This document shows, piece by piece, positions 26,536 to 58,881 of a DNA stretch of 64,000 nt. Position numbers and translations under genes: made by a program. The notes under the pieces were generated by a model. That model was not told where the DNA came from, ran no database searches, and was given only the letters and a program-made list of their open reading frames with translations. The stretch lies in assembly GCA_000004985.1 (NCBI GenBank), contig GG738901.1; one strand, given 5' to 3'. The stretch is from Naegleria gruberi. Lineage: Eukaryota. The stretch's first letter is position 1; every line of letters starts with the position of its first letter.

Positions 26536-28623
26536 ATGGCAGATTTCGAACTGGAGATTGGTGAACCTGTCCATGACGTGGCTGAGCTCATTGCATGGAT
26601 AGATGCGTGTGATCTCATCAATGATGATGAAGAGGAATCAACAAATGCTCCGAACGATCATTTACAGCACTCATCAAGTGTTCAAAATTATGATTTTCTC
26701 TTGATTGGCTCGAAAGCATTGAAGAGTCATTGGCAAGAATTAAATAATTCAACAATGATGGTGATGAAGGAATCTTTGGCCAAACATTCTGGATTTGGAA
26801 AGAAAATTATCAAGAATCATGTTGATCACCGTTTTGAGAAGGACTCGGATTGGGATTTAGTTTGTCTGAATAAGAAAGCACTGATGGAATTCTTGAAGAA
26901 TGAAGAGATTGAGGAGATTTGTGTTAATTATATTGTACAATTGGAGGATTTTGAAGTGAGTGAGAATGATTATTGTGAATGGATGAACATTGGTGGTCAA
27001 CCAACGAGATGGAAAGAGTTTTCGCTTCGTTTAGAAATGAAGAATGGATTAATTATTGAGATTGAATACTGCACTCATCAATATCACCTGTTAAAGTATT
27101 TGAATTCAAAGAAGATTAATAATGTGAAAGTTCCATTCATGAATGAGTTCAATTGTGCTCTTGCTCCTCTCGAATTGTTGGAAATTATCAAAAGATCTCA
27201 TTTATTCTTTAATATTCTTAACGATTCCTGGTTGAAGCACTTTCTTGATATAGAAATGATTCATTTGATTCAAAAAGTATCGGAAACTCACGATGTCTTA
27301 TACTTGGGCACAGCTTTTGAAGATAACGAGCTCATTTGGTTAGTTTATTACGACAGGCTTACAAAACGAATTGTAAAAATGGCTCAAGATGAACAGGATT
27401 CGTATGATAATTATATTGACATATACTGTTTCAATATAAGGGAGGAAGAGATCCGTCATGTTGCTCGTGATGGTTATTCAGAAAGTTTATTTTCTGTTTT
27501 TGGAGTGAATGAAATTCAATTAAATCCATCATTTTTGGGAGACAGCTCCCAATCTATTGAGTACATGTCTCAAGCTATAGCTGGAAACATTCTCAAAACA
27601 AGTATATTCCGTGTGGTCAACTCTGAAGAATTGGAAAAGTTGATCCTCAAATCAATGCAAAAAGCACTTGATTATAATTACAAGACCTATCTGTTTATGA
27701 TTATTATTGAAGTGTATTGGAAGATTTCTGAGAGAATATTTGACATGCTCCATCAACCCGAAAGACTTGAAGCATTATTTAACACTAAGACTGAAATGTT
27801 AGAATTTAAATTCAAGAATTATCCAATTGATTTGGAGAAGGATGATGTGAAGGATATTTCACATCTGAATGGTCTCTATATTTGCAGTCATTACTTGCCA
27901 ATTCATTTAATTATGAATATCATATCATATTCCCATTCAGCTAGTGATATTATCCATCTTACTCAATTGGACAAGAGTTGGAATCAAATTTTTGAAATTC
28001 AGGATGTCTGGAAGTATTTGTATTTCAGCAGATATCCTACTCCATCCCAATACTATTCTGTGAAATCTACTTTCCAAGCAAAGAGTTGGAAATTGCAAGT
28101 CCTAGCCAGATCCAAATTGAATAGAATTCCACTACTGTCCAGTCAAGGATGTAAGGGACTTGCCGAAGTATTCAAGAGCAAGTTTATTGGAAAATCAGAA
28201 GCTTTCAAACAATTCATTTCTGATTTTTATGCAAACACTTACATTGTGAGCAAGAAGGAAGTTAATAATTCTTCTGATGAATCCAAAACCTTAAAAGCAA
28301 CTTTAATGATTTTCTGGCCAAGACAAGCTCCACTCCAGGTTGACTTGGAAGTTTATCTTGATTATGCTGAGTACAGATCTGGAGATAGTAAAGGAGGTTT
28401 CGGTAGCAGAGAGAAGGTCACAGTTAGATACTTGGGAGGAAAGAGCTCATATTATTCAAATCAACCTTTAATTCTCAGGTCAATCACCAACCCTGAAGAC
28501 TTTATTGGAAGGTACTATCTTTCAATATTGAGTCAACAACAATATGCTTCTCTATTTTCAACTTTGGCAGTTTTAGGATTTGGAAAGAATTGGACAAGTG
28601 AAGTGTTGGGTTATTCGTGGTAG
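26536..28623 (+). CDS. Hypothetical 695-aa protein with C-terminal F-box-like motif
   Basis: ATG at 26536, acidic N-terminus. LPIHLIMNIISYSHSASDIIHLTQLDKSWNQIFEIQDVWKY fits the F-box pattern (LP..l...I......dl..l..v.k.W..l.....W). Confidence 0.5.
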   Translation: MADFELEIGEPVHDVAELIAWIDACDLINDDEEESTNAPNDHLQHSSSVQNYDFLLIGSKALKSHWQELNNSTMMVMKESLAKHSGFGKKIIKNHVDHRFEKDSDWDLVCLNKKALMEFLKNEEIEEICVNYIVQLEDFEVSENDYCEWMNIGGQPTRWKEFSLRLEMKNGLIIEIEYCTHQYHLLKYLNSKKINNVKVPFMNEFNCALAPLELLEIIKRSHLFFNILNDSWLKHFLDIEMIHLIQKVSETHDVLYLGTAFEDNELIWLVYYDRLTKRIVKMAQDEQDSYDNYIDIYCFNIREEEIRHVARDGYSESLFSVFGVNEIQLNPSFLGDSSQSIEYMSQAIAGNILKTSIFRVVNSEELEKLILKSMQKALDYNYKTYLFMIIIEVYWKISERIFDMLHQPERLEALFNTKTEMLEFKFKNYPIDLEKDDVKDISHLNGLYICSHYLPIHLIMNIISYSHSASDIIHLTQLDKSWNQIFEIQDVWKYLYFSRYPTPSQYYSVKSTFQAKSWKLQVLARSKLNRIPLLSSQGCKGLAEVFKSKFIGKSEAFKQFISDFYANTYIVSKKEVNNSSDESKTLKATLMIFWPRQAPLQVDLEVYLDYAEYRSGDSKGGFGSREKVTVRYLGGKSSYYSNQPLILRSITNPEDFIGRYYLSILSQQQYASLFSTLAVLGFGKNWTSEVLGYSW

Positions 28624-28643
28624 ATTAATTTTCAAAATATTAT

Positions 28644-30346
28644 TTAATTAAATTCATCATTCAATTCGTTATCATCATACCCATCTTCTTCCTTTGGCAA
28701 ATTCAAAGTCTTAAAGTTAATTCCTGACAGATTTTGAGATGCTGATGATACTTGTAATTGTCCTTCCAACCCTATATCTGGGAGAACTGTTTCCAATGCT
28801 TGCTGATTACTAAGGAGGCATGTGTCGAAAGCATCTTGCTTTTCCTTGAAAATGACCTTGTGTTGAGCAAGTGAATCCAAGAATTGAAGTGGAGGAGTCA
28901 TTGTTTGTTGGTATTGAATAAAATTGTTCATCCATTCCATCTCTTCAATTCTTCTTCTCATTTCAGTTTCTCTTGAGAGTAACTCACTCATCTTTAATTG
29001 TGAAATGTCGTGCAAGGACACCAATGCACGCTTGTATTGTTCTTTGAGTTGAGTTTCCATTTCAACAACATTGGAGACAATCATTTGTCTTCTTTCCTCA
29101 ATAGCAGCCAATTCTTGATCTGCTTGCTTGAATTGCTGCATTTGTGTGAACACTTCAGGAAGAAGAATGGTCTCATCGGTGGGAGGATTCATGGTTTGTT
29201 CTACAAAGTTCAAAGCCTTTCTGTAGGCCTTTCCAATAATCTTGTCACTTGTTTTGAAAAAGTCACGATAATGTTGAAGAGTTTGATTTCTCAATCTCTC
29301 ATCGCCCATATTGTCAAACTCAACAATACAAACAAAATCGCAAAAGATGTGAGCTGGATTGAGCATTATAAATTCGTGATGGAATTCTGGATCTTGTTCC
29401 TCTACATTTTGAAAGATTGATATTTAAACATATGATAACCTTACAATAACCTACCAGGTTGATAATAAACACTGTCATAACCTTGTGGAATTGAAACAGG
29501 TCCAGTAGTTTTTTTTTCAATACAGAACGATTTTCCTGGATAGAACAAACAGTGCATGAGACGATAGAATTTTTGACGAGATCCTGAACTTTCTTCGTAA
29601 TTGGCTCTAGAGTGCTCTTGAGGTGGTATAAGAGAGGTGCTGAATTGTTGGGTTTCTGGACTCAAGTTAACTCGTCCAACAGATAGTTTGATACCAGCTT
29701 CTGGAACATTGAAACCGTCACAAACAATATTTTCCAAAGTATTCTGAGATCCAATAGCTTCCAAATCGTTCAGGTTAATCCAAACATCCATCAAACCACC
29801 GTCTCCAATTGTAGATCTAAACTGATGATATTCAGAAGACTCCTTCAAACTGTAAATTCTAAAAGCAGTACTTGAAACAGAACCAACAGCCAATCTCAAT
29901 GAATATTCCAAATAGTTATAGAATGGATCTTGTCTTGGTATTTGCTTTGTTTTCATATTGAGAATTTGAAGCTTTTCATTGTTGTACATTGGTAAATCTT
30001 CAGTATTGTCCTCACTCGAATTCATTCTAGGAGAACCGTAGTGTGCTTGTTGATTCATCATGAGCTGCTGTTGTTGAGGTGGAAACTGTCTGTACATGAG
30101 ATTGTTGTGGTGTGGAAAAACCTGTGGTTGTTGATTCATCATTTGTTGATGTTCATTATACAGATTTCTTCTAAAGCTTGCTGCTGGCTGATAACCTCCA
30201 CTTCCCCCACCTGGATAACCAAGGGAATTAGAACCACCTCCCATACTACTTCCTCCATAGCCATTATTATGATTATTATTATAAGTATTATATTGATGCA
30301 TCATCGATGATGATGAGGGCATGCCCGACGATGAGGTATTGTACAT
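28644..30346 (-). CDS. Hypothetical Q/N/G-rich protein with C-terminal coiled-coil; 2 exons join(30346..29455,29401..28644)
   Basis: ORFs 29441..30412 and 28644..29366 are joined by a 53-nt intron GTAGGT...TGTAG (phase 1, codon G|AG). Giving ..YYQP-E-EQDPEFHHEFIMLNPAHIF.. ORF-track start 30412 is TTG; first ATG is 30346 (MYNTSSSGMPSSSSMMHQYN). No domain recognised. Confidence 0.5.
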
Positions 30347-30761
30347 TTTTTTAATGTAAAAAAACAGCCTTAATTCTTTTTTAACGGTTTTATTTTTTTG
30401 GCGGGCCAACAAGAGCCTCTCTTAAAAGATTCTTCTCATTCCTCCATGAAAACGAAAATCATAATCTGATAATGAAGAAAGTTTGTGAATATATTATTAA
30501 TAAGCTTTTGTTGAAAAATAGTAATTGATAACAAATAATGCGGAACACCAAACCAAGACAATTTTTGAAAATATTTTCCAATTAAAAAAATTTCAATTAC
30601 TGCGCGCTTTTTTTTCTTCTCTTCGTTCAACTAGAAATTTTCCATCTTCAATTACCAGAAGCAGATAACTTGTTAGCAATTCAGATTAAAGTTGCAACAC
30701 AAGAACAAGAACACATTGCGGAAGAATATAGAGAGAGAATTTATTTGCATAAAACTCCAAT

Positions 30762-33320
30762 ATGTATTCACATAGTAGTAGCAATAATAATAACAATGTT
30801 AATGGGGGTGGTAGTTTGTTTTCTCCGAATAGTGTAGCATCATCAACACCTACAACACCATCTTCTCCTTCCATCATGATGAGTCCACCACCATCATCAT
30901 CACATCATCAACAACACCATCAGCATCACCATAATCATCATCATCTTCACCATTCAACTCTTCCACCATTAAATTCATTTCATAATTATACTGCTGGAGT
31001 GATGCAACATTTTGATGGTTTTCATGGAGGTTCTGCAACCTCTCCTTATGGTTCTCCTTCGTTCTCTCTACCTACAACACCTACATCAAACTATGGCCTT
31101 GGAAATGGTCAATCATCGGTAGGCATTGCATCACCTCTTCCAAATGTATTGCATTCGCCTTCTTCAGTGGGGACATCTCCACAACTCAACAATGGATCGA
31201 ATGTCATGGTCAACAAACCATCAACTTCAGCCTTTGGTAAAGTTTCTACAGCTCCAACCCCTAGTGAAATTGTACCAAATTTTGTCATTGACCAAGTGAG
31301 TAAAATTACGAATAGAGATGAATATGAACCAATCAGTCACGAGAATTTAATGTCAATAAGAAAGAGCAAGATTATTTCACCAAATAATGATATTTCTAAA
31401 AGTAAGAATCAATCTACTTCAGAGGATGAGGACTATGATGATGATGGATCAGATTCTGCACAAAAAACAAAATCCGATAAGAAGAAGTACCACCCTATTG
31501 CCTGTGTGCAGTGCAGGTCTTTACACAAAAAGGTTTGTTTAGTTTCGAATAATGCATTCTAACTCGGAAAAGTGTGACAAGAAATTACCTTCATGCTCAA
31601 AATGTATTTCTAGAGGTGTGGAATGTACAGTATGTAGTTATATTGTTTTGGATTTATTGGAATTTCTAATCAATTGATAATAGTATAATACCCCAAGAAA
31701 GAGAGGAAAAGTCTCTAGAAAGGACACTGATAAAACTGATGTAAATAATGTTAATAACAATACTAATAATAACATGAATGGAAACTCATCCATGAACCAA
31801 TCAGGTATTCCACCTTTTGTGAGGACTGAAAAACCAAATAACCATCTTCCTCCACCATCAGTGATTGATTCATACTTTGCAGTTTTATGTGGTGGCCATC
31901 CAGCCATTGAAAAGAAAAAGCTAGAATATACTGTTCAAAATAATTACTCCTATATTAATGCACTCCTAGTGACGAATGACTACAATGTGAGGTTACCAAT
32001 ACCTGAAGGAGAAAATGCAGAGACAACATTTATTCTTGCCTTTTATTTATCCATTCAAGCTCTGTATGTTTTTTGATAATAATTTTAACAATGTTCAAAC
32101 AATTTTAATTCAGATGTGAACAGCGATATGGGTTGTTGGATCTTGCTGAAGAATCCCACAAGCATGCGGAGAAGGAAGTTGCCAGATTGATAGACCACTT
32201 TACAAACTTTTACATGGTTGCTTGTTATATCAATATGGCACTGTATGAATCAGGTGGTGGAAATTACAAAAAGGCAAGATTTTACTTGAACAATGTGAAT
32301 TTTTACTTTGAGGATGAGGAGAATATGAATAAGGATTTCAACTTTTACGAGCAAAATTTGAAAAAGTTTAGAGTATTTGTTGTTGGATCATGCCATTCGG
32401 ATATTGATAATATTGGATCGTTGGGCACGTTTGTGGAAATGATGCCTCGAATGTTTAAACTGGCTTCTGGAGGACAAGATATGCAACTTCCTCCAGAATG
32501 TTGGCAAGTTTTCAATTCTAGGAACGTCACCCCCGATAATTACATGCTTTTCATGCAAATTATGGATATGGTGTCTAAAGCATTCGAAAAATATAGAGCT
32601 ATCCTTTATGGTATGGCAACGGATTGTCACTCTCCAACATTCTTCAGATTCCAAGATTTACAAAGGGCCTTCATTAACAATGGTATTAGATTTTTACTAT
32701 TGGAGAAGGTTGTCAATGTGGCCTCAAACTTTGCTGAAGAAACCGCTCTGAAAATTACACTTCTCACAGAACATGACCTGTTCCCGTAAGTATTTCACTT
32801 TTACAATCTAATAATCCTCCGAAAATGAAGATATTGTGGACTTGGAGTCATTCTAGGAATAATTAATACTTGTAAATTTCATTTAAACATTGTGAAACAA
32901 ATAGAGAGTGGAATGCGACCAACACATTCAACAATCATTTCATCAGCAACTAATAAGGCAATAACAGTTGACTACTTTTCCATTTTACAGAAGGATTTAA
33001 GAGCATTACAAGTACTTGCAAAGAGATATAAGAGACTAACCCTCTACCACTCTCAAATGATGGATGAAATGGAACAAATCATTAGAAGAAAGCACAATGT
33101 CGATCCATTCCACACAGCTCTTCAAATCCAAACACTCTCCAATATGGCACCACCAGTACAGACAGGAACAGGCACTGATAACCCTAATGATGTTCTCCTA
33201 TCAACCATATTGGGCTATTTGAAGAAGGCAATCGAGAGTAATCAAAATCCACCTCCTTTCGCAGCAAACATGAGTCCTGTAAATGAAACACGTGCTGATT
33301 TTGGTTTTCCATGGGAATAA
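30762..33320 (+). CDS. Transcription factor with fungal-type Zn2Cys6 binuclear cluster and fungal_trans-like middle region; 5 exons join(30762..31532,31573..31629,31684..32063,32114..32785,32831..33320)
   Basis: Exon 1 ends ..IACVQCRSLHKK. 40-nt intron GTTTGT..AAAAG. Exon 2 is CDKKLPSCSKCISRGVECT, completing C-x2-C-x6-C-x6-C-x2-C-x6-C. 54-nt intron GTATGT..AATAG. Exon 3 starts YNTPRKRGKVSRK (basic linker). Further introns are GTATGT..TTCAG (50 nt) and GTAAGT..GAAG (45 nt, weak acceptor). All exon phases match ORFs 30762..31562, 31774..32076, 32133..32789, 32892..33320. Poly-H/Q/N N-terminus. Confidence 0.7.
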
Positions 33321-33476
33321 TGACCTCTCACCCTCAATAAATCCGTGATCAACATGGCTATGTTGTAATGACTACAGTATGGAACATCATGTTGAACATG
33401 TGAAACTGTTCCATCTAGTTCCACAACCAGCAAGATTATCTCTACAGCTCACACAACTTTTACCACATCAAAAAAA

Positions 33477-34499
33477 ATGTCATCCTCATCAGCATCTTCC
33501 GAATCAAAGTTTGCAATTCTAGTCATTGACAGTGAACAAAACAATTGGGATTTGCTCTTCTCCGAGAATAATCTTCTCACCAAATATAATTTAGAAATTG
33601 AACAAACCACGTGGGAGAATATTGCCTCTGTCACCTCCTTCAATGATGGAAATAATAAGAAGAGAGCATGTGAAATATCGTTGAGACCTTGGAAAACAAC
33701 TTGTACATTCAATGATCGTAGGAATAGACAACGAATTTTCCATGCTAATTTTGTATTGGTTAGGAAATTAGTTCAGGGATTGAAAATTGATCAACATAAT
33801 TATGTCAATCACTTGTTGGGAATGATGCATTGTAATTTGCCTTCTATCAATTCATTGCATTCAATTTATTTGAATTTACAAAGACCATTCATTCATGGAA
33901 TTTTATCTGGAATTAGAGATGAGAAGGGAGCTGATAAATTCCCTCTCATTGATCAATATTATCATGGTGAACCAAATTCCATTCTTTTCACACCTTCATC
34001 CTCTGATAAGGTTGTCATTAAAGTTGGAAGTGCAGAAGCTGGATTTGGAAAAGTACTCTTGGATAACAATAATGGAACATTACGTGATTTTGGAGGATGC
34101 ATTACGAGATATAATGATTTTTTCACAAGTGAACCTTTTATTGCCAATAGAAAGTGTGATATCAGATTGCAAAAGATTGGAAAGAATATTAGAGTTTATG
34201 AAAGAGTGAGTTCTAATTGGAAAGGCAATGTTGGAAATTCAATTCTTAAAGAAGTGGAAGTGAAAAAGCATTATAAGGAGTGGATTAAATGGGTTGATGA
34301 AGCTGTCAAGTCCAAAATGGGAAGTCCAATGGAAATTTTCACACTCGATGCCATTCAAGTTGAACCAGAACCTGGCAAGTTTGTAGAATATATTTTGGAG
34401 ATCAATGATTGTGCCAGTGGTCTAGCTCCAGATAATTTACAGGAGGATATTAGAAATATTAGAGATTTGGTAATTTCAAAAATTAGTGATCTCGTTTAA
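33477..34499 (+). CDS. Synapsin-domain (ATP-grasp) protein (340 aa)
   Basis: Colinear similarity to the synapsin C domain (FVLVRK..; LPSINSLHSIYLNLQRPFIHG; KFPLIDQYYHGEPNSI; DKVVIKVGSAEAGFGKVLLDNNNGTLRD; SEPFIANRKCDIRLQKIGKNIRVYER; NWKGNVGNSIL; EYILEINDCASGL). Confidence 0.8.
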   Translation: MSSSSASSESKFAILVIDSEQNNWDLLFSENNLLTKYNLEIEQTTWENIASVTSFNDGNNKKRACEISLRPWKTTCTFNDRRNRQRIFHANFVLVRKLVQGLKIDQHNYVNHLLGMMHCNLPSINSLHSIYLNLQRPFIHGILSGIRDEKGADKFPLIDQYYHGEPNSILFTPSSSDKVVIKVGSAEAGFGKVLLDNNNGTLRDFGGCITRYNDFFTSEPFIANRKCDIRLQKIGKNIRVYERVSSNWKGNVGNSILKEVEVKKHYKEWIKWVDEAVKSKMGSPMEIFTLDAIQVEPEPGKFVEYILEINDCASGLAPDNLQEDIRNIRDLVISKISDLV

Positions 34500-34686
34500 C
34501 TTTGATTTAAGCATTGAAATCTATAGATCACAATCTGGATAACAGACAATATCATGATATTGAAATGTAAATAAATTGTTGTTTTGTATTGTTTATAAAT
34601 TGTCAATATTATTCAAAATATTGGCTGCAAAATAATAATAATTGAAAATAATAAAATTGAATCATCAGCTTCAAATATTCCAATTA

Positions 34687-35456
34687 TTATTTAGCAATTC
34701 TAGAAGCAGCAGCTGCGTAAGAAGCAATAATTGCAATGATAATAATGGCTGCAACAACAACTGACAAGATATTAAGTCCTAAAGTAATGAAAAATCCAAT
34801 TTGTCCATATTGTCCATATTGTTTAGCTCTTGGATCTGATGAACGACGGAATTTCATAACTGGAACAAAGAAGAAACAACTGAAACAGAATCCAATTCCA
34901 AGGAACCACATGACAAATGTCACTAACAAGGCAAACATTAAAGCTTCTTCAGCTTGTTTGCCTTCTCCAACTGCAGAAACACCATTCACAACAGTTGTAG
35001 TAGTTGTGGTGGCAACAGTTGGTTGAGCTACGATCACAGGTTGTGGAGTGTAGTATTGTGGTTGTGGTTGACCATAAGCTACAGGTACCTGTTGACTTGG
35101 ATCATAGTATGGTTGTTGTGGATATGGTTGACCATAGGCATTTGGTTGAGTTGGTTGACCATAGTATGCTTGTGGTTGTTGTTGATTTGGATCATATTGA
35201 GGAGGAGGTTGAGCATAGGTAGCTTCTTGCTTTACGTTAGGATCCTATCATTATTAGTAGTATTCGAAACATGTAAAATTTCATCACAACATCACGTTTT
35301 GAACATTAGTTTTTAAATGTTGCATGTGTTGTTATTATCCAAACATTATTATCATTTTTGTATGTCATTTCCAAATAGTTTCGGTTAGATTTTAAAGTTT
35401 AGAATAAACATTGTTCATAACAAAATTGCACTACCTACCACTGGTTGTTGATTCAT
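34687..35456 (-). CDS. Small membrane protein with YGQP/PQ-repeat N-terminus and two TM segments; 2 exons join(35456..35439,35229..34687)
   Basis: Exon 1 ATGAATCAACAACCAGTG (MNQQPV). 209-nt intron GTAGGT...GTAAAG. Exon 2 is QEATYAQPPPQYDPNQQQPQAYYGQPTQPNAYGQPYPQQPYYDPSQQVPVAYGQPQPQYY.., then TM1 ALMFALLVTFVMWFLGIGFCFSCFFFVPV, loop MKFRRSSDPRAKQYGQYGQ, TM2 IGFFITLGLNILSVVVAAIIIIAIIA. The ORF-track ORF starts at GTG inside exon 2. Confidence 0.45.
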
Positions 35457-36351
35457 GATGTTGTTATATTGATTGGTTTCGTCTTGTTTTTTTGTGATAT
35501 GAAGCGAGAATTTGCGTGATGTTGAGTTGAAACTTTTCAGTGAATTTTCGAATAGAAATAGAACGCTCTTTCGAATTAAAAGTCCTTTTGGTTTGCAGGT
35601 TTCTGTTTCCAGGCATTGAGAGAAAATTAACGAGAGTGATTATAATGATATTAGTTGTAAAGTATTGATTGGGTCATTGTTCATGTGCCACAAATTAAAT
35701 CAATTTCGAATAGTAATTATGAAAGTGTATGAAAGATGGATTTCGTAACCTATTAACCAATCGCATTGTTTGTGCGAAAGTTTGATTTGACAAGTTTAAA
35801 ACTTCATACTTGGACTTTGATAACTACAGTTCATTTCTTACTTTGTATTCGAAATAATGTTGTATTCTAACAGATAATGCCACCTATATTTCCATCTTGT
35901 TTCCAAATGACCATGGTCATTATTAATTGATTGTTACATTCTAACATGTTTGATACCTCAAAGAAAATCACAATCTAACAAATTGACGATTCGTTGTTTA
36001 GTAAAAACTAAACACAGATCTTGACAATTTCCATTACACACAAACACTAAAAAAATATGTTCAATAACAGAGATTCATATGGTGCTAGACAAGCCATCTT
36101 TACAGGTGGATTTTGAGAAGTTCCCAAAGCATGACTATAATTATTTCATTAATTCTGGAGGAGTGCATTCCGAAAATTTGTTAATGTTGCCAACTTTGAT
36201 TTTAGATTGAAAACCCATCAGTTGCAAGTGGATGAAATCAGCAGTAAATAAAATCCAACTTAACAAAGTAAATGCCTATATAAACTCTTAAATTATTTGT
36301 TCTCTAATTGTGTAAATGTAAAACAGGTAGTATCATTGACAAGTTCACTAA

Positions 36352-49905: not shown

Positions 49906-50051
49906 AATTCCTTAAAAGACATGTAAATGTTGAAGGCTTTTAATGCTCTTTAAAATTGAAAGCCTTGAAGGAAATATTTGAGAGGAACTCCATAAATGGA
50001 AGATCGATTATTTTCGTAATTTTGCAAAAATGGAAATACTTTAAAAATTTA

Positions 50052-51716
50052 ATGTCTAAAAAAATGAAATTATTCAACATCTTTCTAATTATCTGTATCG
50101 CCTGCTATCTGTTCTTACCAGTATTCTGTCTATCCACACAAGTTACTTCCAATGGCGTTACATATTTAGGATTTCAAAATGGAAACGTTTCTTCCTTTAT
50201 TGGAATTCGTTATGGACAAGAAACCTCTGGCAATAATAGATTCAAGATTACTGTACCCTTCCTCTATGATCAATCCTCTGTGGTCAATGCAACTTCATTT
50301 GGCCACGTTTGTCCACAACCAACCACTGCCACAACTTTACTTTCGGCCATGAGTGAAGATTGTCTTAATCTGAATATTTGGACACCAATGTTGAATGAAA
50401 GTGTGCAAGTTATGGTTTGGATTCATGGTGGTTCATTCACAAGTGGTTCAGGTTCTATCTATGATGGTTCGTATTGGTGTTCGAAAGCAGCCGAAATGGG
50501 AATTCCAGTAGTTCTTGTAACTATTAATTATAGATTGGGATCTTTGGGTTTCTTATCTGATAAGACAAGTGGTGTGAATGGAAACTTTGGTTTATACGAT
50601 CAATTAGAAGCTATCAGATGGGTCAAAGTAAATATTCGAAACTTTGGTGGAAACCCTGACAAGATTACCGTAGCAGGAGAATCAGCAGGTGGCATGTCCA
50701 TAGCATGTCTACTCTCCACCTCCATTTTCTCTTCAGAAAACCTCTTCCAACAATCAATCATTCAAAGTGGAATTCTTCCAAGCTCAGTTTTACAAAATAC
50801 TTTGGACGGAGCTCAAGCATTTACAAATATTTTGAAATCAAGAGTTTCCTGTTTCACACTAGCTTGTTTGAGACAATTACCATTTGCAGATTTCATTACA
50901 GCTCAGAGAAATATGACCTTTGTTCCAGTAGTTGATGGTCAACTTTTATCCGAAACTATTTATCAAAATTTAGACAAGGTCAATAATCCAATCTCCAATA
51001 TTTCCATGATGGTTGGAACGACCAGGAATGAAACCACTGCATTCACCTGTGATAGAGGATCTAATCTCAATATCTATCAATTATATGTCCTCTTCAGAAC
51101 TCTCTTCAATATGGAACCTCTCTCATCAATTTTCGAGTTGTTGGCACAAGTGTCCATTCTCTATGGTGGACAGGGGACTTATTCGAGTATTTTGCAATTC
51201 TTTAATGTGTTTATGACGGATGCATTGTTTTATTGTCCAGCTCGATATTATTCATCGGTGGTTTCAGAGATGCAGAAGAATGTTTCGTCTAAAAGTAGAG
51301 TGGAAAGGAATGTTTATCAGTATGTATTTTCGTATGTCCAACCGAAATTGGGTCCTTGTTATGGAGCTCCACATGCTTCTGAATTGCCTTATTTGTTTCC
51401 ATCAATTTTGGACGAAATTAAGAATAATCCAGATTTGAGTGGAATGTTTTCTGATTCTCAAAATTTAGAATTTTCAGATAAGGATCGAAAAATATCTGAT
51501 TCAATGATTTATTATTGGACTAATTTTATCAAATATGGAAAACCAGATGGAGAAAATCCAAAAGAAGAATTCCCAAATTGGATTTCGTTTAATAGATGTG
51601 AAGAGAAGTTATTGTATATTGACATCCCTCTCAAGATGGAACAAGCAATGAAAGAAACAATTTGTAACTTTTGGGACGATCAATTTGGAAGAAAGAAAAT
51701 TGAGAAACATTGTTGA
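50052..51716 (+). CDS. Carboxylesterase type B (cholinesterase-like alpha/beta hydrolase), secreted
   Basis: ORF 49956.. begins at TTG; in-frame ATGs are at 50052 and 50064 before the signal peptide MKLFNIFLIICIACYLFLPVFC. COesterase motifs EDCLNLNIWTP, VWIHGGSF, nucleophile elbow GESAGG, FGGNPDKITVAGESAGGMS. Intron-free. Confidence 0.85.
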   Translation: MSKKMKLFNIFLIICIACYLFLPVFCLSTQVTSNGVTYLGFQNGNVSSFIGIRYGQETSGNNRFKITVPFLYDQSSVVNATSFGHVCPQPTTATTLLSAMSEDCLNLNIWTPMLNESVQVMVWIHGGSFTSGSGSIYDGSYWCSKAAEMGIPVVLVTINYRLGSLGFLSDKTSGVNGNFGLYDQLEAIRWVKVNIRNFGGNPDKITVAGESAGGMSIACLLSTSIFSSENLFQQSIIQSGILPSSVLQNTLDGAQAFTNILKSRVSCFTLACLRQLPFADFITAQRNMTFVPVVDGQLLSETIYQNLDKVNNPISNISMMVGTTRNETTAFTCDRGSNLNIYQLYVLFRTLFNMEPLSSIFELLAQVSILYGGQGTYSSILQFFNVFMTDALFYCPARYYSSVVSEMQKNVSSKSRVERNVYQYVFSYVQPKLGPCYGAPHASELPYLFPSILDEIKNNPDLSGMFSDSQNLEFSDKDRKISDSMIYYWTNFIKYGKPDGENPKEEFPNWISFNRCEEKLLYIDIPLKMEQAMKETICNFWDDQFGRKKIEKHC

Positions 51717-51825: not shown

Positions 51826-54800
51826 TTAAGCATCCACAACGGTTGAAACTTGGTTACAAGATTGATCGACAATTTCATTCATGGTTGATGATAAATCAGT
51901 CCAGGAAACTGTCATGGCTCTCGCTGGATCATAATTCATTCCTCTAATTTGTCTAGCACCCCAAGTGTTGGACATGGCAGAACCAACGGCCATAGCCACA
52001 ATTTTCTATAAAAGGAAAATTAAAAATTTATCAAAATAGGAAATATTCAAAAATTAATGAAAATAAAAAATAAAAACATACCCATTGGACCTTATTATTT
52101 CCATTGTAAGGATTATCCAAATCATATGGAACAACTCCACTAGCATTACGTTTCCAACTATTAATCTTTTGAGCTGCAGGAAGAGCATCAGCACATGGCA
52201 AACAATAAGCAGATTTGGAAGTACTACAATAATCACATTGAGTTCCATTGAGAACTGATGTATCATTATACTTGTAGGCACAAATATCATTCAATTGAGT
52301 GTTCAAAGCAGAACCAGTGTACTTGTTCAAGATATTGGTTTGGATAGAGTTGGAGAAGAGACTTGGTCTTGCTTGGTATTCATTTCTACAATCACCACAT
52401 GAACATGGAACGTTGGCAACACCATCAGTCAAAACTATTGTAAAATAAATTGAAAAATTATTTGTAAGAAATTGTAAGGGTGAAAAAAAACTTACTGAAA
52501 ATAACCTTATCAGCATCATCTCTACCTCCATTGGCAGGTCTCAAAGCATCTACAGCAACTCTCAATCCAGGAATAGTTCCAGTTGAAGAGGCTTCATAAG
52601 CCATATTAGTTAAGGTATTATTAATTGTTGTTCCGTCATTCGAAAGTTTCAAAGCAAGTGTTGCATTCGAGTGGAATCTTACAATGGAAACCAATATGGA
52701 ATCTGATGAGATGGACATTCTTCCTGTAATTTGTTTACACAAAGTTCTCATTGAATTATAATTGGTTGTACCAATTGACCCAGAAGCATCAAGTAAAAAG
52801 ACAAAGTCAATCTTGGCAGTGCAGTAACAATTCTTGAATTCAATGTAGACAGTTGCGTTTCTAGAGACGTTGAATGAAGTGATCATTGTGTATTGGAATT
52901 TATCTGCTTGACAGGTTGTGGTGTCAGAATCAACTTCGATAGCAGCAACTCCATTAACTGTCACTAATCTTGGAGTCTTGTGACAGTAATTGGAATTTGG
53001 ACAAGAAATTGAGGTTAATTTCAAGGTAGTATTTGAACCAAATTCATCAATATCATTTTGGAGAATTTGCCAGACGTAGATTCTAATAGTTTGTCCTTGA
53101 TTAATTTCAAATCTGTCATCATTGGCAGTTGGTGTTGATGGTGACAAGACAAATGTAATGACAGCAGTATCAACTCCATTAGTTGGTAAATTGTTATCCG
53201 AAACCTTAACATTCATTGTACAAGTTCCAGTAATGACAGTTGGCAATCTTGTAAAAGTGACAACTCCAGAAGTAGAAATAGTCAAACTTGACACAATTGA
53301 GCCACAACTATGACCAGTTTGACTGAAAGTCAACACATCAGAACCATCAGCATCTGTGGCCGTATAACCAAAAGTATGGACATTGCTCGTAGCAAGTGGA
53401 ACCACCGTAAAAGTCACATCATTTGCAACCGGAATTTGATTATAAATATTAACAGTCACTGAACAGGCACTGCTACTCGTAGCTTGAGAATCGGTGCTAG
53501 TGTAAGTGACTTGGAAAGTTCCACTGTTAGTGGATGAAGCTTTGAAAACAGTTCCTGTCAAGGTGCCAAATGTTGAAGAGATGGAATTGGTAATGGTGTT
53601 GGTGATTGGATCATTGTTGGAATCGGTGGCGCTGAATAAGGTGGCCAAGTCAATTGAACCTTTCTTTAACAAGTCAATTGAGCTTGAAGAACAGATTGGA
53701 GCAGAATTGAGGAAAGTGACACTGAATGTGAGATTTGATGTACTGTAATGAAGACCATCGAATAATCTGAATTGAATTGTCTTGAGACCAAGGATGAGTT
53801 TGTTACTGGTGGTCAATCTGATACCAGTTCCAATATTAGAAACTGTAATACTTGAATCAGAAGAAACGAAATTGGTATAAGAAATGGAATCTCCATCAGC
53901 ATCTGAAACTGTGGCAATTTGAGCCCAAGTGAAATCATAAGTAGAGGTTGTGTAATCTCTGTCAATTGATGTGGATTTTCCAGTACCTGTTGGAGCATTG
54001 TTAGTGACAGTTACAGTGACAGTTCCTGGATTATTGGCAGTTAACATACCATCAGTACATTGGAATTTGAAAGAACCTGTAGCAGAGTAAGCACCATTAG
54101 AACCAGTAAAGGTTAAAGAAGTTGCAGAAGGAGTATAACTAACAATCTTATTCGAAACTGAAACACTTCCACCAACAACACTTGAAGTAGCTCCATTGAA
54201 GTAGGCAGTATCCAATGAATCAGAATCAGTACAAGCACCTGATGATAAATCCACAGAAACAGATGATTTCCATTTGGTAGTTGCTGTCTTGTCAACACAT
54301 TGTGGAGCATTGTCATAAACATTGACATTTACAACAGTGTTGCTATTTTCAAGGGATTGAGCACCATCTGTGAATTTATAGGTGACAACATCAGTTCCAA
54401 TGTAGGTTCCCGGAGCATTGTAAGTAATGGTTGAAGTTCCAACTGAAACTGAACCCTTTTGAGCTGATGCACTAACAAGTGACAAGTTGTCATTATCTGG
54501 ATCTTTCAAAGAAGGTGCAAATGTTGCGAATGGACTCAAGGTAACACCAGTTTCCTTCCAGTGAACATTCTTTGAGCTTGCAACTGGAACTGACATGTTA
54601 TTATAAACAGTGACATAAACTGTACCTGGAGTTGACACAATTGAATCACTAGCTCCATAAGTGAATGAGAAAGTTCCCAAATAAACAGATGAACCAGCAG
54701 TAGCAACAGCATTTGGTGAAGTTGGCATAGCAATAGATCCAGCCCCGGATGGAGAAACACTAGATACTTGAACTGAATAAGTTAATGCATTTCCTTCAAC

Positions 54801-57800
54801 ATCTGTTACTCCAGTACTCATGTCCATTTGATAACCCGTCTTGTGAGTAGCCCAGTGGACATTGAAATATTTGGTGTTGGTTACTGGAGCAGTATTAGTC
54901 ATGGTGAATGTGACTGAGAAAGTAACTGTGGCCAAACCATCAGTTGCAGTTACCTTAAAAGAGTCTGGACCGACATATTTGGTAGGAGCAGTGTAAGTGA
55001 TTGAACTGCCAGTTACTGCAGAGACAGACCCCAAAGTTGATGAGCTATCAACGCTCTTGACTGTTCCCTTTGTTTCTCTACCAGCAGAATAATCATCATC
55101 AACATAATTAGTTAACAAGTCAACTGTCTTTGAGCCTCCCCAATTAATAAATTGAGTAGCAAGACTGGCAGTTGGCACATTATTGTAAGTAGTAATAGTA
55201 ACAGAAACAGTACTATCAAGACCAGTATCAGTAACAGTTACAGTGAACGTATCAATGTACAATTTTCTCAAAGGAGTAAAGTAAATCTTTCCACCTGACA
55301 AGGTGACAGTTGGATTAGAAGTGGAACCAATTGCCTTAATAGTTGAAGTTGGCAAGTTAGTCAAGATTGGAACTTCATAATTGTTGGCATTCCAGTGGAC
55401 ATCATAACTTTGATCATAATTTGAAGAGCTCAATGAACTGACAACAATGTTAATGTAACAAATTGATGAAGCTGTCAAACCATCAGTGACTGTGTAAGCA
55501 TAGGTACGAGCACCAATGTTTGCGTTTGGTTTAAAGTTCAAATATGCACCAACTACAGTGAAAGAATCACCAGGATAGGAATTTCCAATAATTTGAGCAG
55601 TTCCAGGAACTAAATATGGAATATCATTGGAATCTGGATCAGTAACTGATGATGAAATTGAATAGTTTTGACCACTTGTAACATAGATTGGTTTGAATGA
55701 AACGGTCATGTTTGAACATGTTGGTGCACTGTTTGTAATGGTCAATTGAGCAGTTTTACTTCCAGATGAAGCCAAACCATCAGAAACTGAGAATGAGCAT
55801 GAGGCTGTACCAAGAGTATTAGGTGGAGCTGTAACTCTAACCTTTGGAACAGTGTCACTAGTCTTTGAACAAGAAGCTCCAGATAATCCTGAAGCAGTTG
55901 GATTGACAGTCAAAGTAAGAGAATCACCATCATTGTCAGTTGTCTTTGCCATGACAGTGAAATCTTGATTAAGAGATTGAGACAACAAAGTTCTCCAATG
56001 AACAGAAGTAGCAACATTTGAAGCACTTGGTACATCATTATTAGTAAAACCAACGTTAACAGTAATTGTATCAGATTGTGAAACAGTGTCAGTAATAACA
56101 TATTGGAAAGTATCAGCCAATCCATTCTTCTTGGCAGTATATTTAACAGAAGATCCACTAACAGAAGCAGCAGTACTTCCACTAACAGAGTAGAGTGAGA
56201 TTGGATCTCCATTTGGATCCATGTCATTGTCCAAAACTGAGAACAAGGTTGCAGGAGCAGCCCAATGGAGAGTGTATGATTCACCTGTACCAACTGGTTT
56301 AGTATTGGTCACTTGAACGTTGACAGTTCCTTGAGTTTTCTTATTGTAATCATAAGCATAGTAAGTGAATGACTTTGAACCAACAGTGGCAGAGACAGTG
56401 TTTGGAATAAATTTGATAGTCTTGGAATCTGACAAGGTGACAGTTCCAACAGAGGAGTCAGCTGTAGTAGATTCTAAGACAAGAGCATCACCATCTGGAT
56501 CACTATCATTGGACAATGGATTAACCAAGACACCACTAGGATTTCTCCAGTGAGTTGTGATGGAATCATCAACAGTGACAGGAGCGTTATTGTTGACAGT
56601 AATAGTGACAGTAGCAGAGTTGGAATCAGCATTAGCAGAACTTCCATCATTTAACTTGTAAGTGAAAGAATCAGTTCCAACAAAACCATCAGTTGGTGTG
56701 TATCTGACAACACTTCCCAATACAACAACAGAACCATGAGTTGGATTTGTGGTAATGTGAACAGTGGATGTGGTCAAATCACCATTCTTATCAGAATCGT
56801 TATCCTTTACAGAGCAATCAACTGATCTATTCCACAATGTGGAGTAGGAATCATCAACAGCAACAGGAGCATCGTTAACAACTTGTAAAGTAACTGTAGC
56901 TCTATAAGTTGAAGTCAAACCATCTTGATGGGTGACATCATAGGTCAAATAATCAGTATATTCAGCATTAGAAGCAGCATATGACAAAGTATTCTTAGTG
57001 CCAGGTACAATAGTAGCTTGAATATTCTTAATTGTAGAAGCAGAAACAAAGTTTACAATAAATACTGAACCAAGACCATCGTTTGGATCAGAATCATTAT
57101 CCAAAACATTCAAAATGGAAGTAACACCCTTTGAAATCTCGAATGTATCATCGGCAGGAGTTGGTGGATTATTGATAACAGTAACAGTGAGCTTTCCCTT
57201 TGAGAAACTTGTTGGATCAGCATTACCATTAGCATCAAGACTTTGATCAGAAATTACATATTGAGCAACGTCAGTTCCCAAGAAACCATTTGGAGCTGAG
57301 TAGAGAGCATGTGTTTCATTGAAGAGGGTCAAACTTCCTCCATTCAATGTTGTGGAATTCCAACCAACACTTGACAAGACGATCTTTGCAGTGTCACCAC
57401 TGTTGATATCATAATCATTGGCAACGAGATTGACATAAACTTGAAGATTCTTATTACATTCGGCAAGGTCATCAACTGCAACAGGTGGAGTATTGACAAC
57501 GTTGATGGTGATTATACCACTTCCTGTACCTTCACCATCTGACATGACAACAGTGAAAGTTTGAGTGTAAACTTGATTGGAAACTGGTGTGAAAAGGATA
57601 GTGTAATTGTTTGTTTCAACACTAAGCCAATCACAACAATCAAAGAAAATATTGACATAATTAGTAGTCTTTTGTAAAGAAGAAGAAACAGATGCAAGAG
57701 AAGGAGTGATTGTACTTGGAACGATCAAATCCTTTCCATCTGCATCATAATAATCAATAGTAATTGAATTATTAGTGGATGACTTGGCAACAGTGACAGT

Positions 57801-58881
57801 TTTAGAATAGACAACTGGATTTTGATTGTAAACTGAGATTACAACAATACCAGATGAAGTAGCAACACCATCTGAAATGGTATATTCAAACGAATCAGAA
57901 TATTTGGTATTGACACTACCACTTGTAATGTAAGTAATCTTCTTTTCACCAACATTGATAGCACCATAACCAGTACCCAAAGCACTTGTAATATTGAAAT
58001 CATCACCATTGATATCATAGTCATTAGCCAAAACATCCAAAACCAATGAACGGAATTTAGGAATTCTGTAAGTATCATCAACAGCAATTGGAGGATCGTT
58101 GGAGACAGTGACAGTAATTATAGAGCTCGAAGTGTCATAGCCATCAGAAATGGAATAGGCAAATTGTTCAACACCATTGAAACCATATGCAGGAGTATAA
58201 TAGAAACCATTAGCTGGATCAACAGAAATTGAACCAGTTTCAGCACTATTTCCACTAACAATAGTTTGATTAGTGAAAGAAACTGCTTGAATTAAATCAC
58301 CATTATCTGGATCATTAATCTTCTCATCATTATCACCAACATAATCAAAAATGTTGATTACTGAATTCTTGGCATTCTTACTGACAGTTACACGAATAGG
58401 AACGGCTTCTGGTGGACGATTCAAAACTTGAATAGTAACAGATGCATTTGCTGTCTTGTAACCATTAGTAATTTGATAACTGAAAGTGTCATTTCCAGCA
58501 AAAGTACCATTTGACTTGTAGAGAACTTGACTATTGGACTGAATTGAGGCTGAACCATGATTTGGATAGACAACAAATTGAACCAATGAAATGTTTGCTC
58601 CTTTAGGATCATAATCATTGGAAAGAACATTGATGGTCAATGGAATATTCTTGTAGGTGGAAGCTAAATCATTGACAGCAACTGGTCTTTGATAGGAAAT
58701 CAAGGACACCATCAAGATGGTGGCTACTGTGGAAGCAATAACCAAACCAGAGATGATAGCACCAATCTATTTGGTTTTTTAGAATATGCGAAAGATTATT
58801 CGAAACTTACGATTGTTTGACTAATAGTACCTCCTTTCTATTAAATAGGTTAGAGCGCAAGTGGAGTTTGAAATATTTCAT
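51826..58881 (-). CDS. Giant secreted adhesin-like protein (about 2,284 aa): signal peptide, about 20 tandem cadherin-like/VCBS-type repeats, C-terminal VWA domain with Cys-rich insert; 4 exons join(58881..58831,58766..52496,52434..52082,52005..51826)
   Basis: Exon 1 MKYFKLHLRSNLFNRKE. GTACTA..AATAG intron (64 nt). Exon 2 opens with the hydrophobic IGAIISGLVIASTVATILMVSLISYQ, then about 95-100-aa repeats with recurring P[PV]xAVDD ... (V/L)xxNDxDx[ND]GD motifs, then VWA start DFVFLLDASGSIG ... RDDADKVIF. GTAAGT..AATAG intron (61 nt, phase 1, codon A|TT giving ..VIFILTDG). Exon 3 is the Cys-rich insert (CSCGDCRNEY..CDYCSTSKSAYCLPCADA..). GTATGT..TATAG intron (76 nt). Exon 4 is KIVAMAVGSAMSNTWGARQIRGMNYDPARA..stop. 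All phases are consistent with ORFs 52458..58745 and 52031..52531. Confidence 0.75.

What the first reader, a model, noticed from the sequence alone, without database searches (positions are those of the whole stretch)
30762..33320. Fungal-type Zn2Cys6 zinc-cluster transcription factor whose Cys6 motif is split by an intron
The six cysteines with exact C-x2-C-x6-C-x6-C-x2-C-x6-C spacing only appear after removing a 40-nt GTTTGT...AG intron between the second and third Cys (..CVQCRSLHKK | CDKKLPSCSKCISRGVEC). A second intron follows immediately, before the basic linker (YNTPRKRGK). The downstream exons encode a region resembling the fungal_trans middle-homology domain. Zn2Cys6 regulators are regarded as essentially fungal, with sporadic amoebozoan members. 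So the gene is informative for the organism's affinity. The unspliced reading (CLVSNNAF-stop) would be mis-annotated as a truncated protein.
Basis: partly seen in the sequence, partly recalled or inferred. Interest (0 to 1): 0.5.

Follow-up and report, generated by a model that had tools for sequence, protein, structure and literature searches.

The report
Unannotated Naegleria zinc-cluster transcription factor gene
A five-exon gene of the amoeboflagellate Naegleria gruberi encodes a Gal4-type zinc-cluster DNA-binding protein whose zinc-binding motif appears only after a 40-base intron is removed; it is one more member of Naegleria's largest transcription-factor family, not a sign of fungal or amoebozoan ancestry.

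Summary
Exons 30762-31532, 31573-31629, 31684-32063, 32114-32785 and 32831-33320 are joined across four GT..AG introns of 40, 54, 50 and 45 nt. They give a 789-aa protein with CVQCRSLHKKCDKKLPSCSKCISRGVEC, which matches Pfam Zn_clus at 41.5 bits (cut-off 21).

The window is Naegleria gruberi NEG-M (Heterolobosea), so the taxonomic inference fails. Zn_clus is already the largest transcription-factor family reported in Naegleria, with 78 genes in N. gruberi.

Homologues align without gaps across all four junctions. The N. lovaniensis homologue has its only intron at the same HKK|CDK site. A second strain shows 9 synonymous and 4 non-synonymous changes.

I could retrieve no reference protein model for the gene, only two ORF fragments from a metagenome.

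Verdict: an ordinary new member of a known kind. [quoted passage not shown]

The parts
30762..31532 (+). Exon 1 (aa 1-257). It holds a Ser/Pro/His/Asn-rich low-complexity N-terminal region, an acidic patch EDEDYDDDGSD (aa 221-231, nt 31422-31454), and then HPIAC-VQ-C-RSLHKK with Cys1 and Cys2 of the zinc cluster.
   Evidence: An acidic patch upstream of the DBD is also present in P0001-P0003. Against a second strain, exon 1 shows 5 synonymous and 2 non-synonymous differences plus a 24-nt in-frame deletion.
31533..31572 (+). Intron 1: 40 nt, GTTTGT...TTCTAAC...AAAAG, phase 0, between Cys2 and Cys3 of the Cys6 motif. If retained, the reading frame stops after 9 codons.
   Evidence: The same site and the same flanking bases (aaaaag|GTTTGT ... 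AG|tgtgac) occur in the N. lovaniensis homologue, L002 11306-11368.
31573..31629 (+). Exon 2: 57 nt, aa 258-276, CDKKLPSCSKCISRGVECT, carrying Cys3 to Cys6.
   Evidence: All six Cys are invariant in 30 aligned family members.
31630..31683 (+). Intron 2: 54 nt, GTATGT...TTCTAAT...ATAG, phase 0. Its length is a multiple of 3, but it contains in-frame stops.
   Evidence: There is no gap at this junction in alignment A1.
31684..32063 (+). Exon 3 (aa 277 to part of codon 403). It holds the basic stretch YNTPRKRGK, an Asn-rich linker predicted to be disordered, and the start of the helical C-terminal domain at about aa 330 (nt 31843).
   Evidence: Linker pLDDT is below 50.
32064..32113 (+). Intron 3: 50 nt, GTATGT...CAG, phase 2, in codon L403.
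   Evidence: The junction SIQAL|CEQRYG aligns without a gap to IRALVEQRCG and similar sequences.
32114..32785 (+). Exon 4 (aa 403-627), the core of the C-terminal helical domain.
   Evidence: Against the second strain: 2 synonymous and 1 non-synonymous difference.
32786..32830 (+). Intron 4: 45 nt, GTAAGT...ATCTAAT...GAAG, phase 2, in codon P627. Its length is a multiple of 3, but an in-frame TAA lies at its start.
   Evidence: The junction HDLFP|YCGLG aligns without a gap to TDLYPFCSID.
32831..33320 (+). Exon 5 (aa 627-789 plus the TAA stop). It holds the end of the helical domain (to about aa 735, nt 33155) and a less conserved tail.
   Evidence: P0066, a 142-aa ORF fragment from a metagenome, is 98.6% identical to aa 648-789.
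31843..33155 (+). Coding span (with introns 3 and 4 inside) of the C-terminal all-alpha domain, aa 330-735. It is Cep3/MHD-like by fold. By sequence, every named member I sampled is heterolobosean.

Best explanation
This is a real, intact, five-exon protein-coding gene of Naegleria gruberi NEG-M. It encodes a 789-aa Zn(II)2Cys6 (Gal4-type) zinc-cluster protein.

Shown:
- The gene structure.
- The DBD family membership.
- The heterolobosean family context.
- Purifying selection on the reading frame.
- The Cep3-like fold of the C-terminal domain.

Inferred mechanism:
- After four short introns are removed, the protein enters the nucleus. The basic stretch next to the DBD could serve as an NLS, as in Gal4-type proteins.
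- It binds DNA sequence-specifically through the two-zinc, six-cysteine cluster. In fungi this type of domain reads CGG-type half-sites.
- The C-terminal 400-aa helical domain acts as the regulatory and/or dimerising module, as the middle-homology domain does in fungal Zn2C6-MHD ('CeGAL') factors and in Cep3. There is no coiled coil after the DBD, so any dimerisation would have to come from this domain.
- The acidic patch and the low-complexity N-terminus are candidate activation regions.

The intron between Cys2 and Cys3 is an old feature of this gene lineage. Its practical effect is that gene finders miss or truncate such genes. I could retrieve no model of this one from the reference proteome.
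For: Gene model and motif.

DBD:
- PF00172 at 41.5 bits against a cut-off of 21.
- PUT3, GAL4 and LAC9 DBDs are the best matches among solved structures by sequence.
- The DBD is predicted with pLDDT 86-96 and has two short helices.

Organism: four ORFs of the window are exact matches to N. gruberi EFC39224, EFC39227, EFC39230 and EFC39232, and a fifth to EFC39303.

Homologues:
- N. gruberi P0001 at 34% identity over 90% of the query, E 5e-77. N. lovaniensis, N. fowleri and a metagenome protein at 30%.
- The alignment has no gap at any junction.
- The intron site is shared with N. lovaniensis.

Selection: two contigs of a strain that is about 98% identical show 9 synonymous and 4 non-synonymous substitutions in the exons, plus one 24-nt in-frame deletion. 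P = 2.8e-4 for at least 9 of 13 being synonymous, given a synonymous fraction of 0.213.

Family context:
- The C-terminal profile finds 200 cluster representatives. All eight named ones among the ten sampled are Naegleria or Willaertia.
- 58 of the 152 family proteins scanned (148 of those representatives plus P0001-P0004) carry an intact Cys6 motif.
- Zn_clus numbers 78 genes in N. gruberi (Herman et al. 2021, PMC8296547, Additional file 5).

Fold:
- AF2 pLDDT 90.5.
- Cep3 is described as the only solved MHD (PMC10141177).
Against: - No transcript evidence was available, so splicing of all four introns is inferred from homology, frame and splice signals only.
- The 40-nt intron is at the short end for Naegleria. 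The annotated mean is 203 nt, although a 30-nt minimum was used for N. fowleri RNA-seq mapping.
- No Fungal_trans HMM match exists at any threshold tried. A profile search against PDB sequences finds only the DBD and a TPR-like stretch. Homology of the C-terminal domain to the fungal MHD therefore rests on a predicted structure and one solved family.
- Foldseek gave no hit at E<=1e-3. Cep3 had only the best TM-score, 0.48.
- DNA binding, target sites, dimerisation and activation are untested.
- One + strand GenBank model, EFC39231.1, lies somewhere between 28.6 and 38.4 kb and could not be retrieved. It is probably the synapsin-like gene, but I cannot exclude an N-terminal-only model of this gene.
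- The word-index search is not exhaustive. It missed P0066 and found nothing with the DBD alone.
Confidence: 0.82

Rival explanations
1. Regulated intron retention. The 40-nt intron inside the zinc cluster would be retained in some conditions, giving a 266-aa DBD-less protein or an NMD target. The split motif would then act as a post-transcriptional switch rather than a neutral gene-structure feature.
For: Retention gives an immediate stop after Cys2. An intron between Cys2 and Cys3 recurs across the family, at the same site or nearby, so it has been kept for a long time.
Against: There are no transcript data at all. The site is not strictly conserved: it lies 16 nt away in N. fowleri, one codon away in P0018, and is absent in P0004/L003. 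That pattern fits neutral intron turnover. Introns 2-4 would equally truncate the protein.
Confidence: 0.1
2. Decaying or unexpressed paralogue (pseudogene) in a large, fast-evolving family. This would explain why no reference protein model was found.
For: No reference model could be retrieved. The gene belongs to a family of about 80 paralogues.
Against: The 789-codon frame is intact once the canonical introns are removed. All six Cys and the family-invariant residues are kept. There is an excess of synonymous change and an in-frame indel between strains.
Confidence: 0.05
3. Recent horizontal acquisition from a fungus. This is the sense in which the gene would be 'informative for affinity'.
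For: The DBD type is overwhelmingly fungal. The best structural match of the second domain is a yeast protein.
Against: GC content is like the rest of the window: 0.355-0.359 against 0.31-0.39. The introns are Naegleria-type. The nearest relatives are all heterolobosean, at 30-37% identity, with about 200 diverged cluster representatives. There is no fungal hit by sequence for the C-terminal domain.
Confidence: 0.02
4. A Cep3-like centromere or kinetochore DNA-binding protein rather than a transcription factor.
For: Cep3 is the top structural match, and Cep3 also has an N-terminal Zn2Cys6 domain.
Against: Cep3 tops the list because it is the only solved MHD, and identity is only 10%. The gene is one of about 80 paralogues per genome, which fits a transcription-factor family and not a single-copy kinetochore subunit.
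Confidence: 0.02

Closest known systems
Naegleria/Willaertia Zn_clus proteins. Examples: N. gruberi P0001 (576 aa, 'predicted protein'); N. gruberi EFC37483.1/D2W0I2 (P0013); N. lovaniensis C9374_013766 (P0002); N. fowleri FDP41_008351 (P0003). UniProt names most of these 'Zn(2)-C6 fungal-type domain-containing protein'.
   Same: - Same architecture: low-complexity N-terminus, acidic patch, HPIAC-type Zn2Cys6 DBD, disordered linker, then a helical domain of about 380 aa.
- 30-37% identity over the whole DBD plus C-terminal region.
- The DBD core is 25 of 28 identical to P0013 (read from the sequences).
- The intron lies at the same HKK|CDK site as in P0002.
   Different: - This paralogue has four introns, whereas P0002 and P0003 have one each.
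- It has a different genomic neighbourhood, with no synteny to the P0002/P0003 locus (against 11).
- I could retrieve no protein model for it.
Fungal Zn2C6-MHD ('CeGAL') proteins: Gal4, Put3, Ppr1, Cep3 (Pfam PF00172 + PF04082).
   Same: - The DBD passes the Pfam threshold and has canonical Cys spacing, with basic residues before Cys3 and a Pro between Cys3 and Cys4.
- The domain order is the same: DBD first, then a large all-alpha domain.
- That second domain's best structural match is the Cep3 MHD.
   Different: - There is no PF04082 or PF11951 sequence match.
- The DBD sits 247 aa from the N-terminus rather than at it.
- No coiled-coil dimerisation element follows the DBD.
- The organism is a heterolobosean.
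Amoebozoan zinc-cluster factors: 22 in Acanthamoeba castellanii and 3 in Dictyostelium discoideum (Clarke et al. 2013, PMC4053784).
   Same: They are non-fungal Zn2Cys6 proteins, showing that the DBD is not strictly fungal.
   Different: No amoebozoan protein appeared among the sequence relatives of this gene. They are not the nearest homologues.

Membership tests
[quoted passage not shown] | Six cysteines spaced C-x2-C-x6-C-x5-12-C-x2-C-x6-8-C | tested here: met
   CVQCRSLHKKCDKKLPSCSKCISRGVEC at aa 248-275 after splicing. All six Cys are invariant in 30 relatives.
[quoted passage not shown] | Profile HMM score above the curated gathering threshold | tested here: met
   41.5 bits against a cut-off of 21, E 1.4e-10, covering profile positions 2-38 of 39.
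[quoted passage not shown] | Basic residues between Cys2 and Cys3, and a proline between Cys3 and Cys4 (the two-lobed helix-turn fold) | tested here: met
   R252, K256, K257 and P263 are read directly from the sequence. AF2 predicts two short helices, each starting just after a Cys-x2-Cys pair, at pLDDT 86-96.
[quoted passage not shown] | Binds two Zn(II) ions and sequence-specific DNA | not testable with these tools
   Needs purified protein (metal analysis, EMSA, PBM or DAP-seq).
Fungal Zn2C6-MHD ('CeGAL') transcription factors | Sequence match to Fungal_trans (PF04082) or Fungal_trans_2 (PF11951) | tested here: not met
   No hit at E<=1 for this protein. 0 of 45 relatives hit at E<=0.01 and 0 of 53 at E<=10.
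Fungal Zn2C6-MHD ('CeGAL') transcription factors | All-alpha middle-homology domain fold, as in Cep3, placed C-terminal to the DBD | tested here: met
   - AF2 model pLDDT 90.5.
- Foldseek's best TM-score is also the CBF3 chain 6gys_C, which I take to be Cep3, but at E 0.06.
- This rests on a predicted model and a single solved family.
Fungal Zn2C6-MHD ('CeGAL') transcription factors | Linker plus coiled-coil dimerisation element directly after the DBD (Gal4, Ppr1, Put3 subgroup) | tested here: not met
   The residues after the DBD are an Asn-rich stretch with pLDDT below 50 and no helix.
Fungal Zn2C6-MHD ('CeGAL') transcription factors | Fungal taxonomic origin (the family is defined as fungal-specific) | tested here: not met
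   The window is N. gruberi NEG-M. Relatives are from Naegleria and Willaertia.
Heterolobosean Zn_clus + C-terminal helical domain family (unnamed) | Full-length similarity (DBD plus the ~380-aa domain) to Naegleria and Willaertia proteins | tested here: met
   E 5e-77 to 8.5e-47 over 89-91% of the query. The profile search finds 200 representatives, 68 of them at E<=1e-30. Named members are all heterolobosean.
Heterolobosean Zn_clus + C-terminal helical domain family (unnamed) | Intron inside the Cys6 motif between Cys2 and Cys3 | tested here: met
   - Identical site in N. lovaniensis L002.
- 16 nt upstream in N. fowleri L001.
- One codon upstream, followed by a 12-nt micro-exon, in N. fowleri L007.
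- Broken models at this spot in P0045, P0057, P0069 and P0081.
- Absent in metagenome L003, so the feature is frequent but not universal.

The most novel reading that the evidence does not exclude
The 400-aa domain that follows the zinc cluster in this gene, and in about 200 heterolobosean relatives, is a true but highly diverged homologue of the fungal middle-homology domain. If so, the Zn2C6-MHD 'CeGAL' supra-domain, described as fungal-specific, is not fungal-specific. It either dates back to an early eukaryotic ancestor or moved between fungi and Heterolobosea long ago, and it then expanded independently into the largest transcription-factor family in both lineages.
Probability: 0.55. Interest if true: 0.5.

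Novelty: new member of a known kind. Interest (0 to 1): 0.3.

Why it matters
For genome annotation, this is a concrete case in which a very short intron placed inside a diagnostic motif hides a transcription factor. Related Naegleria models show the same failure: a skipped 12-nt micro-exon carrying Cys3, probable retained introns, and models that start after the intron. The published count of 78 Zn_clus genes in N. gruberi is therefore probably a lower bound.

For evolution, the gene shows that a 'fungal-type' zinc cluster is a poor taxonomic marker.

The Cep3-like fold of the partner domain also gives a testable lead: the whole Zn2C6-MHD architecture may predate, or have crossed, the fungus/heterolobosean divide.

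Tried and rejected
- The look-up of encoding contigs for the N. gruberi proteins P0001 and P0007 returned nothing on record. I therefore could not read the reference gene calls at this locus or the intron structure of the paralogue P0001.
- Exact look-ups of the 789-aa protein, the 266-aa unspliced ORF and three neighbouring ORFs found only EFC39303.
- A DBD-only homologue search returned nothing because of the sparse word index. The same index missed P0066. Absence claims therefore rest mainly on the exhaustive HMMER search together with local BLAST.
- The afdb50 fold library was unavailable. The comparison with predicted fungal MHD structures could not be done.
- A profile of the family against PDB sequences found only Gal4-type DBDs and a TPR-like match to IFIT1, with no MHD by sequence.
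- Literature searches for Naegleria with Zn_clus, Zn2Cys6, binuclear or zinc cluster, and for Acrasis or Heterolobosea, gave nothing on point except the supplement of Herman et al. 2021. Accession searches for EFC39231 and D2VVG0-D2VVG2 gave nothing.
- The metagenome contigs L006 and L008 are genomic, with introns present, so they give no splicing evidence.
- Rejected: a fungal or amoebozoan origin of the window, and a recent HGT.
Full report
**1. What is in the sequence**

I read 30400-33700 and translated it in three frames. I then joined the exons 30762-31532, 31573-31629, 31684-32063, 32114-32785 and 32831-33320.
- The result is a 2370-nt open frame of 789 codons.
- The four removed segments are 40, 54, 50 and 45 nt long.
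- All four begin GTTTGT, GTATGT or GTAAGT and end AG. Each has a CTAAC/CTAAT/TTAAC-type branch-site candidate upstream of the acceptor: 9 nt upstream in intron 1, 13 in intron 2, 18 in intron 4 and 24 in intron 3.
- Each segment either shifts the frame or contains in-frame stops.
- Intron 1 (31533-31572) lies in phase 0 between K257 and C258, so between the second and third cysteine.
- The unspliced reading ends VCLVSNNAF-stop.

**2. Is it a zinc cluster?**

Yes.
- Pfam PF00172 matches aa 247-283 at 41.5 bits (gathering cut-off 21, E 1.4e-10). It is the only significant family.
- The best matches among solved structures, by sequence, are the DBDs of PUT3, GAL4 and LAC9.
- An AlphaFold model of aa 236-735 predicts the DBD at pLDDT 86-96, with two short helices each starting just after a Cys-x2-Cys pair. 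About 40 disordered Asn-rich residues follow, and there is no coiled coil.

**3. Whose genome is it?**

It is Naegleria gruberi strain NEG-M, a heterolobosean. It is neither a fungus nor an amoebozoan.
- Exact-sequence look-ups of single-exon ORFs from the window returned N. gruberi EFC39224.1, EFC39227.1, EFC39230.1 and EFC39232.1, all on a 309,005-bp scaffold.
- A further look-up returned EFC39303.1.

**4. Relatives**

A search with aa 236-789 found four proteins:
- N. gruberi P0001: 34% identity over 90% of the query, E 5e-77.
- N. lovaniensis P0002 and N. fowleri P0003: 30%.
- A metagenome protein, P0004.

The five sequences align from the DBD to near the C-terminus. There is no gap at any of the four exon junctions, which is comparative evidence for each splice.

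An exhaustive HMMER profile search with the C-terminal domain alone (aa 330-735) gave these results:
- It found only 200 cluster representatives at E<=1e-3 among 1.84 billion.
- Of ten hits sampled across the ranking, eight carry names. All eight are N. gruberi, N. fowleri, N. lovaniensis or Willaertia magna.
- 58 of the 152 family proteins scanned (148 of these representatives plus P0001-P0004) carry an intact Cys6 motif.

Herman et al. 2021 (PMC8296547, Additional file 5) already tabulate Zn_clus as the largest transcription-factor family of Naegleria. They count 78 genes (plus one Zn_clus,AT_hook) in N. gruberi and 56-58 in N. fowleri. The kind of gene is therefore known in this organism, and its presence says nothing about fungal or amoebozoan affinity.

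**5. The intron in the motif is a family trait**

- The N. lovaniensis homologue has a single intron of 63 nt. It sits at exactly the same place and in the same sequence context (aaaaag|GTTTGT...AG|tgtgac) as intron 1 here.
- Its syntenic N. fowleri orthologue also has one intron inside the motif, but 16 nt upstream, in phase 2 after CVQCR.
- In another N. fowleri paralogue (P0018, locus L007), the annotated model skips a 12-nt micro-exon CAATGCGATAAG (QCDK) that carries Cys3. Restoring it gives a perfect CINCRKMHKQCDKKLPSCNRCESKGIVC.
- Four further family models are broken at the same spot.
- The metagenome homologue L003 has no intron there.

**6. Is the gene alive?**

Two genomic contigs from an ENA metagenome come from a strain 97.6-98.4% identical to the window. 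They cover 26572-31749 and 32369-35577.
- Within the proposed exons they differ by 9 synonymous and 4 non-synonymous substitutions, plus one 24-nt in-frame deletion in the His-rich tract.
- With 21.3% of random changes being synonymous, at least 9 of 13 has P = 2.8e-4.
- This supports the reading frame in exons 1, 4 and 5 and argues against a pseudogene.

No transcript evidence was available. The contigs are genomic and still contain the introns.

**7. Annotation status**

No N. gruberi protein model of this gene came back from any of these searches:
- The word-index searches.
- Exact look-ups of the 789-aa and 266-aa versions.
- The exhaustive representative search.

The two fragments are prokaryote-style calls on the metagenome contigs. 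P0066 (142 aa) lies within exon 5.

One caveat remains. One + strand GenBank model, EFC39231.1, lies between 28.6 and 38.4 kb and I could not retrieve it. It is most likely the synapsin-like gene at 33477-34499, but an N-terminal-only model of this gene is not excluded. The word index is also sparse.

**8. The C-terminal domain**

By sequence it is not Fungal_trans.
- There is no PF04082 or PF11951 hit for this protein.
- There is none for its relatives: 0 of 45 at E<=0.01 and 0 of 53 at E<=10.
- A family profile against PDB sequences finds only Gal4-type DBDs and a TPR-like stretch.

By structure the picture is different.
- The AlphaFold model, built from 53 sequences without templates and without the DBD, has pLDDT 90.5 and pTM 0.88. 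It is all-alpha with one hairpin.
- Foldseek gives no hit at E<=1e-3. Its highest TM-score, 0.48, is again the CBF3 chain 6gys_C, which I take to be Cep3.

Mayer et al. 2023 (PMC10141177) describe Cep3 as the only solved middle-homology domain. They define the Zn2C6-MHD pair ('CeGAL') as fungal-specific, and they report that the DBD is often lost from fungal models through annotation errors and unprocessed introns.

So a domain that follows a zinc cluster in Naegleria most resembles the domain that follows the zinc cluster in Cep3. I read this as probable remote homology, with a probability of about 0.55-0.6. It rests on a predicted structure and one solved family.

**9. Likely mechanism**

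The shown steps are the gene structure, the DBD membership, the family context, the selection signal and the fold.

The inferred steps are these:
- The spliced mRNA gives a nuclear protein that binds DNA through the two-zinc cluster.
- The MHD-like domain provides regulation and probably dimerisation, since no coiled coil follows the DBD.
- The conserved acidic patch upstream of the DBD (EDEDYDDDGSD, with counterparts in P0001-P0003) and the low-complexity N-terminus act in activation.

**10. Verdict**

This is a correct observation of an ordinary kind of gene in its real host: a new and apparently unmodelled member of Naegleria's largest transcription-factor family. I score interest at 0.3. 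The side lead, a Zn2C6-MHD architecture outside fungi, is the most novel reading that the evidence leaves open.

Noticed in passing
L001 11272-11325 and L002 11306-11368: The syntenic orthologues in N. fowleri and N. lovaniensis each have a single intron inside the Cys6 motif, but the two introns lie 16 nt apart. One is in phase 2 after CVQCR, the other in phase 0 after HKK. This could be intron sliding, or loss followed by regain.
   Followed up: partly
L007 1706-1972 (micro-exon 1774-1785): The N. fowleri model KAF0982742.1 (P0018) reads MHKKLPSC and lacks Cys3. A 12-nt micro-exon CAATGCGATAAG sits between a 68-nt and a 187-nt intron. Restoring it gives a perfect Cys6 motif, so the deposited model is probably mis-spliced.
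   Followed up: yes
Family representatives P0045, P0057, P0069, P0081: These models are broken exactly between Cys2 and Cys3. One has a 15-aa insert that looks like a retained in-frame intron, and the others start just before KCD. Published Zn_clus counts for Naegleria are therefore probably underestimates.
   Followed up: partly
window 30938-30961: A 24-nt (8-codon) in-frame deletion in the His-rich tract of exon 1 distinguishes a metagenome-derived strain (L006, ENA ERZ929261 / PRJEB11402) from NEG-M. That sample evidently contains a Naegleria about 98% identical to N. gruberi.
   Followed up: partly
window 33477-34499 (+): A synapsin-like ATP-grasp ORF (Pfam Synapsin_C E 1.5e-33, Synapsin E 2.8e-13) starts only 157 nt after the stop of the zinc-cluster gene. 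The plain 340-aa ORF is not in the protein collection, so the reference model there must differ.
   Followed up: no
window 52458-58745 (-): A 2095-aa uninterrupted ORF carries eight bacterial Ig-like (Big_9) domains, bacterial cadherin-like domains and a VWA domain. This is a bacterial-looking adhesin architecture in a eukaryotic scaffold.
   Followed up: no
window 2908-4380 (-) and 49956-51716 (+): A MACPF/perforin-domain ORF (E 3e-6) and a full-length carboxylesterase ORF (COesterase, E 1.5e-100).
   Followed up: no
window about 32060-32320 (aa ~400-470; profile positions 136-207 of A6): A stretch of the C-terminal domain (ALCEQRxG..AE....A...L...FD...NF.VA..Y..L..YE.G.G....A.FYL) gives a TPR-like sequence match to IFIT1 (E 3e-4). 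This suggests that this part of the domain is built from TPR-like helical hairpins.
   Followed up: no
window 28644-29366 (-) and 29441-30412 (-): Two minus-strand ORFs lie upstream of the gene, diverging from it across about 350 nt. Neither plain ORF is in the protein collection, and they may be exons of one or two annotated genes (UniProt D2VVG0-D2VVG2).
   Followed up: no
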